DNA of 64,000 nucleotides, from contig CM074514.1 in the NCBI GenBank assembly GCA_037379345.1, positions 37,634,001 through 37,698,000 of the forward strand, written 5' to 3'. Of this stretch, positions 55,401-61,400 are shown piece after piece. The position numbers are program-made. The stretch comes from Perna viridis (Eukaryota). Position 1 is the first letter of the stretch; each line of letters opens with the position of its first letter.

Positions 55401-58400
55401 AGAATTATATGGATCAATTCCCTAGTATATGGTGAAAAATGCAGATTATCATCAAGTATCAACTGGTCTAATGTTCCAAGGACATAGGCAAACACAGCAA
55501 TGAACATGAAATATCTAAAATAACTACACAGAAACAAAAGTAAATAAGCGACTAGGGCTCCGACTGGGAGCAACGGTAGGGTTAAGTCATGAATATACCC
55601 CTGCAATCATGGTCTATTGACTTTGAAATTTAACATTACATCATTTCAAATTTTGAATAACAGGGACAGGTGAGAAAATGGTGATACACCAGAGAAGCAA
55701 GCAAGTAAAGTAGAAATGTCAATAGTGGTATACCTATTTCTACTGAGAAAAAATCTGCCTGTCAGATGATCTCTTGTACAAATTCACGGAAGTCTTCAAA
55801 GTCGCTAATCGTCAAATATTCACTGTCAATGATTTTGGCTTATTTTCAGCATCCGAAATGGTAATAATGTGATATGCTCTAAAATCGGGTGACTTCCGCG
55901 AAAATCTTGGTTCCCTTGATATTATTGCGTACTCTTTCGTAACCGTTATGACCCGAATGTTTTCAATCATGCGGAACAAGATTAAACCAACTAGCAATTG
56001 CTATATATAGATATTGGTGTCTTGATAATATATATGACCTTTATATAATCAATTGTAACGAACGCCTGTGTTTGAATCGGAAACTGGGTTATATTAAATA
56101 ATGCTAACCGATCATTTTATCTTTTAATGTTAACTTTCCTTTCTAATACAAGCAAAAAACACGCATAGACATGTGTATGATATGTTTTGAAAAAGATACG
56201 CTGTAGCGATCTTTGGGTCGCTTATGATATTGACCAGGGAACAGTTGAGGAACCAGATTAAACAGCTGGCAATGAATATTCATAGATAAAAGGGCGTGCT
56301 AATGTATATGACCTATATAGTCTTGTAACGACCCTCAGTGCCTGAATCGAAACTGGGTAATTTTCAAAGCTAACCGATTATTTCATATAAATTTCCCGTT
56401 CTCATACAAGCAAGAAACACAGGTATATTATACTTAAGAGGTACATTTTTATTTCGTATGAAGCTAGAACTATGACGCTGTGGCGGTAAACACGGCGATG
56501 ATCTGCAGCATTACGTGGCGTATACTTACATATTTATGCAAATCATATGCAAATATTAAGTACTGAAATTACGAGTGCAGGAAATATTATCGACTTGAAA
56601 ACAAAGCACTAGCAATAAAATCCCACAAAAAACTGGGATAAACATCAGGTGCTCCTAAAGGGTAAGCATGTCCTGCTCCTTTATATTGCAAGTAAGTATA
56701 ACCCGATAATAGTCTAGCAGCAATTATGCAGATCCGCTTAACCAATGAATTAAATGAGATTAATACTTGTATGATTATTTGAAAATTCTACTACATCTGA
56801 TTGACTCTACTTTAGGATTGACAACTAGTAACGAATATTTTTCGTTTTAAAATCAACAGATTTTTCAATGCATAGGTCTCATTTTAGAAAGTCGGCGTAA
56901 TTTGACCGATTGAATGGACTCTCCTGTTTAATCAAAATAAATGGGGATCAAAAGTTTATCTTTAATATCAGATTAGGTTATAGCCCAGACGTCTTATCAA
57001 GGAGATTATAAGTAGAGCCATTTCTAATTTTCTGGCAGGATTTATTATAAGGATTACTTTCTTTAGCTCATTTTAACACTAGACTTAAAATCGGGGGATC
57101 TGATTTACTAATACAGACTCGTGCTAAGTAAGCCTAAAAATACTGCTCTTTGTGCATCCAAGACCGTGTTCTTATACTGAATAGTTGAACGGGAATAAAT
57201 ACATTGAACAAAAGAGAACTAACTTTAAGTAAATATTATTTTACAGCTTTGTGTCTTCACTATATAAAGCAAGAGAAAGTCCAAAAATAGCATATAATAA
57301 TCTGCAGCTCAACTTGTTTTAAATTCCAAAACAGAATTTAGTGCACCCAAGTTCAAAAGATTAATTACATATTACTTACTGTAAACTGTGAATAACATAA
57401 ACACCACTGGATATTTGAATATTGGTAGCTATAAGACCAACATGTTTTATGTGTGCGTATTCGAATTTATTAAAACAGTGACATTCAACGGATTCAGCAT
57501 TGGTCAACGTGACAGAATGACTACTTAATGGCTGCTAGTTTAGCACTGAGAAAGTTCAAATTACTGCATTATTACTTTGTGTGAGCTGTTGAATTCTAAT
57601 TCTGTTCCAAGTTGTCCAACAATGTCTTCGATTGTAACATATGAACTGTTACACACAGAAGAAAGTACAAGTGATGAAATAAACGAACTCGTTCGGACAG
57701 TAGAAGAAAAAACTTTATTGCAACAACGGCGGTCGATGGCCGTTCGCGTAAAACTACAAGAACTTAGCGATAGGCGAAATAAACTGGACGCACAAAGACT
57801 CGACAGACTTGCAGATTATGGCGTTAATGTAGATTTAAAAGGCATCAAAGATGAGGTCCAAAAATCAATTCAAGAGGAGAAGGAAAGATATCTCCGTGAA
57901 AGACAATGCAAGGAAATGGACGAGGAAACAAATGCTGAAGATATACGTCCCGCAAGTCCTGAAATTGAAATACAGAACACACCCGCAATAGGTGTCACAA
58001 AAAATCCAGACGACCAGAACAGACTGGGTAAAGTGATTGGAAATTTACAAAATAACCAGAAACAATTTGACAAAGAGAATAAAACACCAAGCTCAAAACA
58101 AAGACAGTCATTCGTAACATCAACTCAAAACAGGACTATGAACCAGACGAATGAAGCTCACCTGGAGAGACGTAGCTCACTAACTCCTGGTGGCCCTTGG
58201 GGGTCCCAGAAGCCTCCTGAAAGACGAAGTTCGCTTACTCCGAGTGGACCACAGAAAAATCAAATTAATTCAGGTAAGCAAAATTTACTCAAATCTGCAG
58301 GAGCTCCTACACAAATGTCTTCAGATAGGCGAAACTCGCTGACTTCCGGTGGAGCGATTGTGAAAAATTTTGAAAGGCGAAATTCTCTCATCAATAATGG

Positions 58401-61400
58401 CACATTAAGGAATAATGTAGAGAGGCGAAACTCACTTACTACTGGAGGAAATTTGCCAGACAACATGCAACCATGGATGAGTTATTCCTTTACATCTGGC
58501 TTAACTCCTAAACATAGCAATTATTCAGAAAGACGCGATTCAATTAATTCAATTGAGGCGAATACAAGCAGCAACCGTTTAGGGAGGCGAAACTCTCTAA
58601 CTTTTAGTGGAACTACCGAAAATAGAACGATTTTAGAGAGACGAAAGTCAATTACTTCAACCAGTCCCCTGGTCAACAGAATACTTTCTGAAAGACGTAA
58701 TTCACTAACAATTGGAGACATTCCTACTAGCAACATGCCTTTAATGAGGCGCAATTCGCTCACTTCCGGTGGAAATATGATGGCAAAAATGATGGCACCA
58801 GAGAGGAGGAACTCTTTAAACACGACAAAAGGAGGTAACAGAAAGTTATCCGTGAAATCATCAAAAGTCAAGAGACGGAGTTCTTTCGGGGGTTCATTTC
58901 AAAGTGAAAAATCAAAAATATTGAATTCACTAACTGCTCCGTTAGAAAATAGGGAGTTCAAGAAAGCTTCGAAGACAATTTCAAATGCTTTAAAATTCGT
59001 TTAGGATTTTATTTGGCGTGTATCTGGAGGTTGCCATACACACACCAGTGTAACTGTGGCGGATCGATTCAGAGGTTTTGCAAAAGGGACCGTATTGCTT
59101 ACTTTTGGTTTTTGATCTTCCTTAATTTTTCCAAAGGCGATATTCCCCTAAAGATCCAGTGACGGAGTCGGGGTTTCCTGAGGTTGAAACCTCCCTGATC
59201 GGAAAATTTCATTTAAGTCGCTAAAATTTTTTGTAAAAATGAATAAATATTAGCCTATACCCTCTTTCCAAAATCTCTAGGTCATAACCTATAGCCGAAA
59301 TCAACTGGTTTATTCCTTAAAACTATGTGCTACTAACACTATTTAATGTTGACTAATTGATCAACTTTGAGTTTTTGCAACGATAATTTGAAGTCTTTCT
59401 TCTCATCCAAGCCAAAGTTATCATTCTTTGCATATGCAACTAAAAACAACGTGCTATAAGAATCAAGGTCCCTCTCGGCACTTCTCGTTACACATAGACC
59501 GAGTAGCTCCGATTGTCGCTTAGCATTCAATTTATAAATTGAATTTTATACATATTTTAGGGTCACCTAACTCTTTTCAGTTTTAAATTTAAATATTCCA
59601 CTGTGAACATTCACAATGTACATAGTGAACCAAAAGTTAAGATTTCTCTTTAGTTTGACCAACCATATGAATAAATACGAAAGTAAAACTTAATGCACTG
59701 GAAATTAATTAGGAAACACATATTTTAATTAATAATCCAGACCTACAACTTATATACTACTGCTTCACAAATTTGTGTTATTTCGTTTTACCAAATGTCA
59801 GTCACGTCGGATTCAACTGAGGATCTTTACAAGACCGGCGAAAATGCGGACGACGAAGAATTAAAAAATCTTGTTAAATCAGTGGAGGAAAGGACAGTTC
59901 TGAGATTAAAAAGATCGGCGAAATTTGAAGAAAAACTGAAGGAACTTACCAAAAGAAGTTACAAACTGTATCAGTTGAGGTTAGTACGACTTTCAAAGAA
60001 AAGAGATCATCGCAAATTTAGACGGACAGAGAATGGCGTTTGGAAAGTACCGGAAGTTGATAAAGTTCAAGGAAATTGTTGCTATGACAATGCGCTGGAC
60101 GTGGCGCAGAATCTAAACGATCAGGAAAGACTTAACGAGAAACTTAAACAGCTGCAGACTTTCTAAGAGACGACAAAGGAAAACACAAAGTGAAGATGGG
60201 GGAGCTGGGAATTGTTTTGGGTTCTGTAAAAAAGACATTAACCCGAAAATATAGTACATATGATAATGCTCCATCATGATATCGTCACGCTATCACGTCT
60301 ACGACTTGCTGTCATGATTACGACACGAGTTTTAGTAGCTTTAAATGGAAATACAAAATAGGTACATTAGTACATTTTGTACCTTAGAACCAAATTGTTA
60401 TGAAATATGAAACTTTTGTTTTTAGATTCTGCCATAACGATTGTTTCTTTCTTTCTTTCTTTTTGTTTGTTACGTTATGTTTTGCTTGAATGTCTTGTTT
60501 TGCTTCTAGTACTAGCATTTGAGTTGTTGTCACTTCTATATGTGCAAGCTGTATTGCTTTTCTTTTAGTTTTGTTACATTTTTCGTATAGCTAGATTGAA
60601 TAGAAAAATAGAAAAATATTTCCAAGAATCATTTTTTATAAAAGTGTATAACTAAGTTCTTGAACTTAAATGCAGCTTATTATTTACCGGTAAATGCACG
60701 TCTGGTGTGCGAAGGAGATAGCGAAATTTTAAACATTCTCTTGTGGCATAAAATAAACTATGGTATTCAAGGACAATCGCGAAGTTATTTGTACAACATT
60801 GACAACTTGCTTTAAAAAAACACCAAAAATTTTTTAAAAGATACAGTTTTGACTGGCGCGGATTCTTTGGGACGGAACCAGCATACACCCCCTAAAACAA
60901 GATAAAAAACATTATTAAAGCTTGATTTTTCACAAATTCTACTCCCAAAAATTTATCTGGTTTCGCTTCGCTCCACTTTTTATTCTTTTTTCTGTTCCCT
61001 AACCTAAAATCCTGGATCCATCCTTTCGTGTTATCGACACGAACGCGCATTTGCATTCTGGGTTTACCCGTTTAGAGAGCGGCTCGTGTTTATAGACGGG
61101 ATGTGATATTTCTGCGCGTCAGGAAATGTTGGTCATTAATGTTTTTTCGTGTCGTTATTTGACTTTTTAGTTTATTTTGGTATGTATACACTACTTGAAG
61201 ACCTTTTGGTTAGTATTTTCTATTTTTATAAAGGTTATTGTATGATGGAGCATTTGTTGCGTTTCAATATATCTGTTCCCTTTCCTAATGTTTAAGGTTT
61301 AGAAGGCATGCCATGTAGATGAGATTCATTTTTTTCGTGTTAGCCACGTCTTGTATATTATTACTTGTAATATTCTAACTTAGTGATATTTGGGCTAGGG

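What the first reader, a model, noticed from the sequence alone, without database searches (positions are those of the whole stretch)
58165..58890. Periodic RRxS-hydrophobic array with 16-19 aa spacing and two switched-off units
Seen: 7x RRNSL, 2x RRSSL, RRDSI, RRKSI and RRSSF, plus RKLSV. Unit lengths run 18, 18+17, 16, 16, 18+18, 18, 18, 18, 18, 19. Two in-register units have lost the motif (KQNLL, MSYSF). Linkers and codons have diverged strongly while the motif is retained, which points to selection on the motif. Established: R-R-x-S-hydrophobic is the PKA consensus and is also read by PKG and Aurora. Inference: a multisite phosphorylation rheostat or charge switch on a basic disordered tail, possibly a polyvalent 14-3-3 dock or a kinase-substrate sink.
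Basis: partly seen in the sequence, partly recalled or inferred. Interest (0 to 1): 0.7.

Follow-up and report, generated by a model that had tools for sequence, protein, structure and literature searches.

The report
Mussel-type orphan protein with RRxS array
An unnamed, bivalve-restricted protein carries a disordered basic tail built from a dozen evenly spaced copies of the classic kinase-A target motif, and the number of copies differs between relatives, which makes it a likely multi-site phosphorylation switch of unknown cellular role.

Summary
Window 57622..59004 (+) is one uninterrupted 460-aa coding frame. Residues 182-422 carry 12 strict RRxS-[L/I/F] motifs plus RKLSV, spaced 16-19 aa, with two decayed in-register units. 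Shuffles give a mean of 0.11 and a maximum of 3. Of 15 such motifs in all six frames of the window, 12 lie here.

Motif codons are 87% identical at positions 1+2 and 32% at position 3. Linkers are 13% identical, and no DNA repeat is detectable.

The protein has an acidic helical head, a disordered tail of net charge +31, and a short C-terminal helix.

It belongs to a small unnamed family. The only named member is from Mytilus coruscus. Relatives keep 2-3 RRxS sites, and one has 6 by a separate expansion.

No Pfam, PDB or Atlas relative was found. No signal peptide, canonical 14-3-3 motif or RVxF motif is present.

The best reading is a multi-site substrate of a basophilic serine kinase, most likely of PKA type, acting as a graded charge switch. 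Phosphorylation, expression and cellular role are untested.

The parts
57622..59004 (+). Complete intronless coding frame, 460 aa (P0001), ATG to TAG
   Evidence: A 99%-identical 460-aa protein (P0003) has the same first and last residues. Relatives start with the same MSSI and end with the same tail.
57640..57933 (+). Acidic helical head: helix aa 7-65 and helix aa 72-104. This is the most conserved part of the family.
   Evidence: AlphaFold2 model, pLDDT 85-95. There are 21 invariant columns in the 7-sequence N-terminal alignment. Residues 1-152 have net charge -7 and pI 5.0.
58006..58074 (+). Third conserved helix, aa 129-151
   Evidence: pLDDT about 79. Conserved N, L, L columns in all 8 family sequences, including the head-only paralog.
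58096..58113 (+). Decayed first anchor site (KQRQSF, aa 159-164). It aligns with RRKSV / RRKSI / RRNSL of the relatives.
   Evidence: Alignments; coordinates.
58165..58887 (+). The array, aa 182-422: 12 live E-R-R-x-S-[L/I/F] units, one RKLSV, and two decayed units
   Evidence: pLDDT about 30-40 throughout.
58276..58290 (+). Decayed unit 1 (KQNLL). The allele P0003 reads RQNLL here.
58477..58491 (+). Decayed unit 2 (MSYSF, followed by TSG as in live units). The serine is kept and both arginines are lost.
58840..58854 (+). Off-register weak site RKLSV
58873..58887 (+). Last site, RRSSF (preceded by K). It is the counterpart of the RRNS site present in every full-length relative.
58951..58998 (+). 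Conserved basic C-terminal helix, aa 444-459
   Evidence: pLDDT 70-77. Aligned with the tails of P0004, P0005 and P0008. tblastn of those tails hits 58804-58998 at E about 1e-5.
59242..59247 (+). First AATAAA after the stop codon, a possible polyadenylation signal
   Evidence: Pattern match only. Not tested.
59795..60166 (+). Tandem head-only paralog, 123 aa (P0002). It has both conserved head helices, no RRxS tail and no C-terminal helix.
   Evidence: BLASTP 42% identity over 65 aa, E = 2e-8. Alignment. tblastn of relatives gives E = 4e-10 to 5e-8. It has 0 RRxS motifs.

Best explanation
The gene encodes a soluble, non-secreted protein of a small family seen so far only in bivalve-type sequences.

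Architecture. An acidic three-helix head is followed by a long basic disordered tail and a short basic C-terminal helix.

Origin of the array. The family's ancestral tail carries about three RRxS sites. In this genome one site-bearing unit of about 18 aa was duplicated many times, long enough ago that the DNA repeat has vanished. Selection has held R-R-x-S-aliphatic in 12 units while everything between them drifted.

Most likely mechanism (inferred, not shown). Each unit is a Kemptide-like acceptor for a basophilic, serine-preferring kinase. The cAMP-dependent kinase type is the first candidate; PKG, Aurora, PAK and CaMK/PKD-type kinases are not excluded. Stepwise phosphorylation of up to 12-13 serines would remove most of the tail's +31 net charge. 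That would give a graded or thresholded release of the tail from an acidic partner, such as its own acidic head, a cytoskeletal polymer or a membrane surface. On this reading the number of units sets the gain, and it evolves: 2-3, 6 and 12 in different relatives.
For: Shown by calls:
- Motif excess and periodicity.
- Purifying selection on the motif. Codon positions 1+2 are 87% identical and position 3 is 32%. The acceptor Ser is always TCN, with three different third bases. The first Arg is always AGR, and the second is CGN in 11 of 12 units. The motif is 78% identical against 13% for the linker. No DNA tandem repeat is left.
- Family conservation. An exhaustive phmmer run over 1.84 billion representatives gave 5 proteins at E <= 0.001. 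Four are true relatives (P0003-P0006) and one is a repeat artefact that I dropped (P0007). Word-indexed profile searches added P0008 and P0009.
- Counts of RR.S[LIVFMA]: 12, 12, 3, 3, 3, 6, 2 in P0001, P0003, P0004, P0005, P0006, P0008, P0009, and 0 in the head-only paralog.
- Every RR outside the head, 41 of 41, is followed by x-Ser and never by x-Thr. This fits a serine-preferring kinase such as PKA (PMC7361990 passages).
- An independent recent expansion. P0008 is 90% identical to the Mytilus coruscus protein over aligned columns but has three extra units of 17-21 aa.
- Accessibility. The tail has pLDDT about 30-40, net charge +31 and pI 11.9, and 54% of its residues are G/P/N/S/T/Q.
- It is not secreted. 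The best 19-residue hydropathy window scores -0.005.
- The PKA consensus RRXS/T-hydrophobic and Kemptide LRRASLG are taken from PMC7361990 passages.
- A mussel PKA catalytic subunit with a conserved catalytic core, including substrate-recognition motifs, is reported in PMC13425070 (passages).
Against: - There is no direct evidence of phosphorylation, of expression or of any partner.
- Units related by duplication are not independent witnesses, so the count of 12 overstates the number of independent observations.
- Only RRxS is conserved family-wide. The +1 residue is Ala at two sites of P0006, which weakens the 'hydrophobic +1' part of the consensus.
- Glu at -4 (8 of 12 units) is not part of the PKA consensus and is absent from the relatives' sites. 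By my reading it looks inherited from the founder unit.
- A hydrophobic residue at -5 in 7 of 12 units would also suit CaMK/PKD/AMPK-type kinases (recalled).
- Full phosphorylation at about -2 per site would bring the tail to about +5 to +7 (my arithmetic). That is neutralisation, not reversal.
- The six allele differences all avoid the motifs, but only 0.8 would be expected there by chance, so this says nothing.
Confidence: 0.5

Rival explanations
1. The repeat works without phosphorylation, as a basic ligand-binding module. It could be a polyvalent binder of an acidic polymer such as microtubules, nucleic acid, actin or acidic lipids. In that case RR supplies the contacts, and Ser-Leu-Thr-x-Gly-Gly is kept for binding geometry.
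For: - The tail has net charge +31 and pI 11.9 and is predicted disordered.
- The conserved unit is longer than the kinase consensus. Thr at +2 occurs in 8 of 12 units and Gly at +5 in 7 of 12.
- The even spacing of about 18 aa in two independent expansions would suit a lattice-like ligand.
Against: - The extras (E at -4, T at +2, GG) are not shared by the relatives' sites. Only RRxS is.
- Decayed unit 2 keeps S-F-T-S-G but has lost both Arg.
- There is no Pfam hit to any nucleic-acid-binding or tubulin-binding repeat, at E <= 1 for the whole protein.
- This reading and the phospho-switch reading are not exclusive. Binding switched off by phosphorylation is the usual combination.
Confidence: 0.2
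2. The array is a phosphorylation-dependent polyvalent dock for 14-3-3 dimers, or a stoichiometric sink for a kinase catalytic subunit. These are the first reader's alternative readings.
For: - Twelve equivalent RRxS sites are present.
- From recall only: a spacing of 16-19 aa is long enough for neighbouring sites to reach the two grooves of one 14-3-3 dimer.
- From recall only: the motif RRNS-L is the substrate form of the RRNA-I pseudosubstrate of PKI.
Against: - There are 0 matches to R..[ST].P. No unit has Pro at +2, and only two units have Pro at +3.
- Every unit has Ser, so none is a non-phosphorylatable pseudosubstrate.
- Nothing is known about the abundance of the protein.
Confidence: 0.1
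3. It is a prohormone or neuropeptide precursor in which RR marks dibasic cleavage sites between repeated peptides.
For: RR pairs recur at regular intervals along the tail. One unit has Gly directly before RR (aa 321-323), as amidated peptides do.
Against: - There is no signal peptide or hydrophobic segment anywhere. The N-terminal 30 residues have mean hydropathy -0.52, and the best 19-residue window scores -0.005.
- Conservation is centred on the RR-x-S-L itself, while the sequence between RR pairs is 13% identical. That is the reverse of a peptide precursor.
- 8 of 12 units have Glu, not Gly, before RR.
- The N-terminus is a confidently predicted long helix conserved in all relatives.
Confidence: 0.02
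4. The ORF or the array has no function: a chance frame, a pseudogene, or neutral repeat drift in a fast-evolving orphan gene.
For: - There is no known domain.
- The family is very small.
- Two units, and the first anchor site, have decayed.
Against: - A 1,383-nt open frame in 33% G+C DNA whose start and stop match those of the relatives.
- An allele with 454 of 460 identical residues and the same length.
- Third codon positions are randomised while positions 1+2 are held.
- The same motif is kept in relatives that are 32-43% identical.
Confidence: 0.05

Closest known systems
Kemptide / canonical PKA acceptor (LRRASLG; consensus RRXS/T-hydrophobic)
   Same: Each live unit reads R-R-x-S-[L/I/F]. 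Hydrophobic Leu, Phe or Val lies two or three residues upstream of RR in several units. The consensus and Kemptide were read in passages of PMC7361990.
   Different: Kemptide is a single site taken from pyruvate kinase. Here 12 copies are strung at about 18-aa intervals. Asn is preferred at -1 and Glu at -4, and neither is part of the consensus.
CFTR regulatory (R) domain (recalled, not tested)
   Same: A disordered segment with many dibasic PKA sites, whose graded phosphorylation tunes an output. This is the standard example of a PKA 'rheostat'.
   Different: The R domain is not a periodic repeat, is embedded in a channel and has no sequence relation to this protein. This protein is soluble, and its sites are duplicated units. 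No Pfam family matched at E <= 1.
Tau/MAP2/MAP4 microtubule-binding repeats with KXGS, and neurofilament KSP repeats (recalled, not tested)
   Same: Basic, Gly-containing tandem repeats in a disordered region. Each carries one kinase site, and phosphorylation weakens electrostatic binding or changes spacing.
   Different: The motif, the kinase class for KSP and the unit length (31-32 aa in tau) all differ. There is no Pfam match to any family and no evidence for cytoskeletal binding.
Unnamed protein product of Mytilus coruscus (P0004) and unnamed relatives P0005, P0006, P0008, P0009
   Same: The head, the third helix, the last RRxS site and, in P0004, P0005 and P0008, the C-terminal helix are shared. 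E-values run from 6e-29 to 8.5e-15 for the three found by the single-sequence search, and all align from the first residue.
   Different: They are 242-296 aa long, with 2, 3 or 6 sites instead of 12. Identity to the window protein is 32-43% over aligned columns. None carries a name or a Pfam domain.
PKI pseudosubstrate (RRNAI; recalled)
   Same: The same R-R-N-x-aliphatic core as the commonest unit, RRNSL.
   Different: PKI has Ala at the acceptor position and a high-affinity helix upstream. All 12 units here have Ser, so they are substrate-like, not inhibitor-like.

Membership tests
PKA-type (basophilic AGC kinase) multi-site substrate | Arg at -3 and -2, Ser/Thr acceptor, hydrophobic residue at +1 | tested here: met
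   12 of 12 live units in the window. In relatives the core RRxS is kept, but +1 is Ala at two sites of P0006. The consensus is taken from PMC7361990 passages.
PKA-type (basophilic AGC kinase) multi-site substrate | Sites lie in an exposed, flexible segment | tested here: met
   pLDDT is below 50 over aa 153-348 and 358-429 of the AlphaFold2 model built on 8 sequences. This is a prediction only, from a shallow alignment.
PKA-type (basophilic AGC kinase) multi-site substrate | Sites conserved in relatives | tested here: met
   The last site is present in 7 of 7 full-length proteins and the first in 5 of 7. The middle site is present in 4 of the 5 shorter relatives. P0009 has lost both Arg there but keeps Ser.
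PKA-type (basophilic AGC kinase) multi-site substrate | The serines are actually phosphorylated by the kinase | not testable with these tools
   This needs an in vitro kinase assay or phosphoproteomics.
14-3-3 mode I/II client | R-[S/aromatic]-x-pS-x-P or R-x-aromatic-x-pS-x-P (recalled patterns) | tested here: not met
   0 matches to R..[ST].P in the whole protein. Non-canonical binding is not excluded.
Prohormone / neuropeptide precursor | N-terminal signal peptide | tested here: not met
   Hydropathy only: the N-terminal 30 aa have a mean of -0.52, and the maximum 19-aa window anywhere is -0.005. No dedicated signal-peptide predictor was available.
Prohormone / neuropeptide precursor | Conserved peptides between dibasic sites, often ending in Gly | tested here: not met
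   The inter-motif sequence is 13% identical. Gly precedes RR in 1 of 12 units.
PP1-docking protein | RVxF-type motif | tested here: not met
   0 matches to [RK][RK]?[VI][^P][FW].
DNA-level tandem repeat (minisatellite-coded array) | Head-to-tail DNA copies that are at least about 70% alike | tested here: not met
   TRF at minimum score 30 finds only a 12-nt, 2.1-copy repeat at 58773-58797. Motif nucleotide identity is 69% and linker identity 36%.
Any curated protein family (Pfam-A), solved structure or ESM Atlas cluster | Significant sequence or fold match | tested here: not met
   Pfam: 0 families for P0001 and P0002 at E <= 1. Among all 8 members there is only a weak FokI_D3 match, best E = 0.0041 in 5 of 8, which I take as a chance match on helical sequence. 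PDB by sequence: best E = 1.9 and, with the profile, 0.67. Foldseek against PDB: best E = 7. Atlas: no usable hit, twice.

The most novel reading that the evidence does not exclude
This is a lineage-restricted signalling element whose gain evolves by copy number. A helical head anchors a tail that acts as a tunable counter or buffer for a cyclic-nucleotide-dependent kinase. The number of Kemptide-like units has been reset independently in different bivalve lineages: 2-3, then 6, then 12 live units plus decayed ones. In this genome a tandem head-only paralog would supply a phosphorylation-blind competitor for the same anchoring site. If true, it would be a natural example of evolution dialling the threshold or sensitivity of a kinase response by duplicating and killing single phosphosite units.
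Probability: 0.15. Interest if true: 0.65.

Novelty: new variant of a known kind. Interest (0 to 1): 0.42.

Why it matters
Clusters of kinase sites in disordered regions are well known. A regular array of a dozen near-consensus PKA-type sites is unusual, especially in a protein with no known domain whose unit number differs between relatives that are 90% identical (3 versus 6 sites).

It offers a clean natural system for asking how the number of equivalent phosphosites shapes the response (graded, thresholded or buffering). The natural variants with 3, 6 and 12 sites, and a head-only paralog, serve as built-in controls.

It also marks an uncharacterised bivalve gene family. In bivalves cAMP/PKA signalling controls well-studied physiology: release of catch muscle, and sperm motility. 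For this background I saw only the abstracts in the listing for PMC7589332 and PMC12040844, and passages of PMC13425070. The link to any of these processes is speculation.

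Tried and rejected
- Homodimer of the head (aa 1-152, two copies) with complex prediction: no verdict. The score was 0.00 in both runs and the controls were not run. This is neither for nor against.
- Foldseek of the model against PDB: best E = 7.
- PDB sequence searches with the protein and with the N-terminal profile: nothing below E = 0.67.
- ESM Atlas, whole protein and head: no usable hit.
- Pfam on both window proteins and on all 8 family members: nothing credible.
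- P0007 (705 aa, E = 1.4e-4) was dropped as a repeat-on-repeat artefact. It aligns only to aa 183-281 through its own TPAG-type repeats, and its single RRxS-type motif (RRNSF, aa 203) lies outside the aligned part.
The accessions and organism names of the unnamed relatives, and the species of the window, therefore stay undetermined.
- Shugoshin-like architecture (coiled-coil head plus basic C-terminus) was a lead from memory. No Pfam match at E <= 1, so I rejected it.
- The minus-strand ORF 58521-58898 (125 aa) mirrors the repeat. I rejected it as a gene because all relatives align to the plus frame from start to stop.
- Rfam and tRNA scans of the whole window: none.
- Literature. A full-text search for 'RRNSL' listed 16 papers, none on molluscs or on a repeat array. 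'RRXS' + 'tandem repeats' + 'PKA' listed 1 unrelated paper. 'phosphoproteom' + 'Mytilus' + 'PKA' + 'motif' found 8 papers (7 listed), none describing such a protein in the listing or in the passages I read. Supplements are closed, so proteome or phosphoproteome tables that might list a family member were not seen.
I did not use genome contigs because it holds only bacteria and archaea. No DNA of any relative could therefore be fetched, and synteny and dN/dS between species stay unchecked.

Full report
**What is in the sequence**

The window is 64 kb, 33% G+C, with no N. It holds one long open frame on the plus strand at 57550..59004. Its first ATG is at 57622 and its stop (TAG) at 59002-59004. 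The product is 460 aa (P0001).

A regex count finds 12 strict RRxS[LIVFM] motifs between aa 183 and 422, plus RKLSV at aa 407.
- RRNSL x7, RRSSL x2, RRDSI, RRKSI and RRSSF.
- Intervals of 18, 35, 16, 16, 36, 18, 18, 18, 18 and 19 aa, then 12 and 11.

The two double-length gaps each contain an in-register decayed unit: KQNLL at aa 219-223 and MSYSF at aa 286-290. By my reading of the codons, each changed codon is a single base away from the live-unit codons. The second decayed unit still has the T-S-G that follows the motif in live units.

The consensus is E-R-R-N-S-L-T-x-G-G, with E at -4 in 8 of 12 units, T at +2 in 8 of 12 and G at +5 in 7 of 12.

**Is it more than chance?**

Yes.
- Shuffling the protein or the 244-aa region 20,000 times gives a mean of 0.11-0.12 motifs and never more than 3.
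- Across all six frames of the 64-kb window there are 15 such motifs, and 12 are in this frame.

**Signature of selection**

- Among the 12 live units the five motif residues are 78% identical and the linker residues 13%.
- At the DNA level, motif codon positions 1+2 are 87% identical and position 3 only 32%.
- The acceptor serine is always TCN, with A, G or T in third place. The first Arg is always AGR. The second Arg is CGN in 11 of 12 units.
- Tandem Repeats Finder, even at its lowest score, sees no repeat of about 54 nt.

The duplications are therefore old and the DNA repeat has eroded, while the peptide motif has been held. The units descend from one another, so they are not 12 independent observations. 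Holding the motif against saturated synonymous change is nevertheless real evidence of constraint.

**The protein around the array**

An AlphaFold2 model was built on the 8 family sequences. Mean pLDDT is 49.5 and the alignment is shallow. The model gives:
- confident helices at aa 7-65 and 72-104 (pLDDT 85-95);
- a third helix at aa 129-151 (about 79);
- no structure over aa 153-429 (pLDDT about 30-40);
- a C-terminal helix at aa 444-459 (70-77).

The head (aa 1-152) has net charge -7 and pI 5.0. The tail (aa 153-428) has net charge +31 and pI 11.9, and 54% of its residues are G/P/N/S/T/Q.

There is no hydrophobic segment. The best 19-residue hydropathy window scores -0.005, and the N-terminal 30 residues average -0.52. 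The protein is therefore not secreted or membrane-spanning by this simple test.

**Relatives**

An exhaustive phmmer run over 1.84 billion representatives returned 5 proteins at E <= 0.001:
- P0003, 460 aa and 99% identical. It differs at 6 of 460 residues, none in a live motif, and one difference turns the decayed KQNLL into RQNLL.
- P0004, P0005 and P0006, 242-254 aa, with E from 6e-29 to 8.5e-15.
- P0007, a 705-aa repeat protein that matches only through its own unrelated repeats. I dropped it.

Two word-indexed profile searches added P0008 (296 aa) and P0009 (242 aa) and nothing else. The second of these was restricted to the N-terminal 80 residues and to longer proteins.

The only named member is an 'unnamed protein product' of Mytilus coruscus, P0004. 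The others come from sources that give no name, and I did not try to trace them. I could not determine the species of the window.

**What the family shares**

All relatives share the following features:
- the start MSSI;
- the head helices, with 21 invariant columns in the N-terminal alignment;
- the third helix;
- an RRxS site shortly before the C-terminus, present in 7 of 7 full-length proteins;
- in P0004, P0005 and P0008, the basic C-terminal helix as well.

Motif counts of RR.S[LIVFMA] are 12, 12, 3, 3, 3, 6 and 2 in P0001, P0003, P0004, P0005, P0006, P0008 and P0009.

In these seven proteins every RR dipeptide downstream of the head, 41 of 41, is followed by x-Ser and none by x-Thr. The only other RR dipeptides lie in the head helix.

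The window protein has lost the first ancestral site, which now reads QRQSF. P0009 has lost both Arg of the middle one.

P0008 is 90% identical to the M. coruscus protein over aligned columns but has three extra units of 17-21 aa, two of them identical to each other. That expansion is recent and separate, and it uses a different unit sequence from the window's array. Site number is therefore evolutionarily labile in this family, while the RRxS core is not.

**Known families**

No known family was found.
- Pfam gives nothing for the window proteins at E <= 1. Across all members there is only a weak FokI_D3 match, best E = 0.0041 in 5 of 8, which I regard as a chance match on helical sequence.
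- PDB sequence searches give nothing.
- Foldseek against PDB gives nothing, best E = 7.
- Two ESM Atlas queries give nothing.

**Interpretation**

RRxS followed by a hydrophobic residue is the PKA consensus. Kemptide (LRRASLG) is its standard peptide, and PKA strongly prefers Ser over Thr (passages of PMC7361990). Aurora B also phosphorylates basic motifs (passages of PMC5874294).

A mussel PKA catalytic subunit is reported with a conserved catalytic core, including substrate-recognition motifs (passages of PMC13425070). It is therefore reasonable, though inferred, that bivalve PKA reads the same motif.

I commit to the following reading, at about 50% confidence. The tail is a multi-site substrate of a basophilic, serine-preferring kinase, with the PKA type first. 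Stepwise phosphorylation removes most of the +31 charge, to about +5 to +7 if all 12-13 sites carry about -2. This would release the tail from an acidic partner in a graded or thresholded way.

What is shown: the array, its conservation, its predicted disorder and its charge. What is inferred: phosphorylation, the kinase, the partner and the output.

Features that do not come from the PKA consensus:
- Glu at -4. It is absent from the relatives' sites, so probably inherited from the founder unit.
- A hydrophobic residue at -5 in 7 of 12 units. By recall this would also suit CaMK/PKD/AMPK-type kinases.

**Rivals**

- Unphosphorylated basic binding repeat. This is possible and not exclusive of the phospho-switch.
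- Polyvalent 14-3-3 dock. There is no canonical support, with 0 matches to R..[ST].P.
- PP1 docking motif. None is present.
- Prohormone. This is contradicted by the absence of a signal sequence, and by conservation centred on the dibasic pair rather than between pairs.
- Functionless ORF. This is contradicted by the matching start and stop in relatives, by the allele, and by the codon pattern.

**Neighbourhood**

A second family gene lies 791 bp downstream on the same strand, at 59795-60166. Its 123-aa product, P0002, is 42% identical to the head over 65 aa (E = 2e-8). It also keeps the third helix, and it stops where the RRxS tail would begin.

No remnant of a tail follows it. The only [RK][RK]xS[LIVFMA] match in the next 1.3 kb is KRYSF at nt 60836. 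tblastn with all relatives finds only these two family genes in the window.

Other genes in the window:
- a single-exon ankyrin-repeat/SOCS-box ORF at 11877-13007 (-);
- an LLGL-domain exon at 36027-36392 (+);
- a Cys-loop channel transmembrane exon at 62219-62974 (-).

**Limits**

Synteny, intron structure in other species and dN/dS between species are therefore untested.

Supplements of papers were closed, so proteomic tables that might list a family member were not seen.

The homodimer prediction for the head returned no verdict and is not used as evidence.

**Verdict**

This is a new variant of a known kind. It is a multi-site basophilic-kinase target region, but in the form of a regular, copy-number-variable array in an undescribed, lineage-restricted family. 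Interest is moderate.

Noticed in passing
window 59795-60166 (+): A tandem paralog of 123 aa keeps both conserved head helices of the family but has no RRxS tail and no C-terminal helix. It could be a phosphorylation-blind form or a decaying copy.
   Followed up: partly
window 11877-13007 (-): A single-exon 377-aa ORF with ankyrin repeats (Ank_2, E = 2.7e-47) and a C-terminal SOCS box (E = 7.6e-6), so an ASB-type protein.
   Followed up: partly
window 36027-36392 (+), perhaps also 38299-38682 (+): An exon-sized ORF matches the LLGL domain (E = 2.3e-7). A lethal-giant-larvae-type gene probably spans the middle of the window on the plus strand. The second ORF has no Pfam hit.
   Followed up: no
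window 62219-62974 (-): A 252-aa ORF with the transmembrane region of a neurotransmitter-gated (Cys-loop) ion channel (E = 4.7e-18). It converges on the family genes.
   Followed up: no
window 16644-17048 (-): A 135-aa ORF whose sequence reminds me, from memory only, of the C-terminal end of non-LTR retrotransposon ORF2 proteins. It has no Pfam hit at E <= 0.01.
   Followed up: no
window 58773-58797 (+): A 12-nt microrepeat (2.1 copies) inside the coding frame, giving MMAKMMA in one linker. It is the only DNA-level tandem repeat in the gene.
   Followed up: yes
window 57727-57735 (+), aa 36-38: An R-R-S tripeptide inside the first head helix has Arg37 and Ser38 invariant in all 8 family sequences, including the head-only paralog. 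It is a different register from RRxS, and its meaning is unknown.
   Followed up: no
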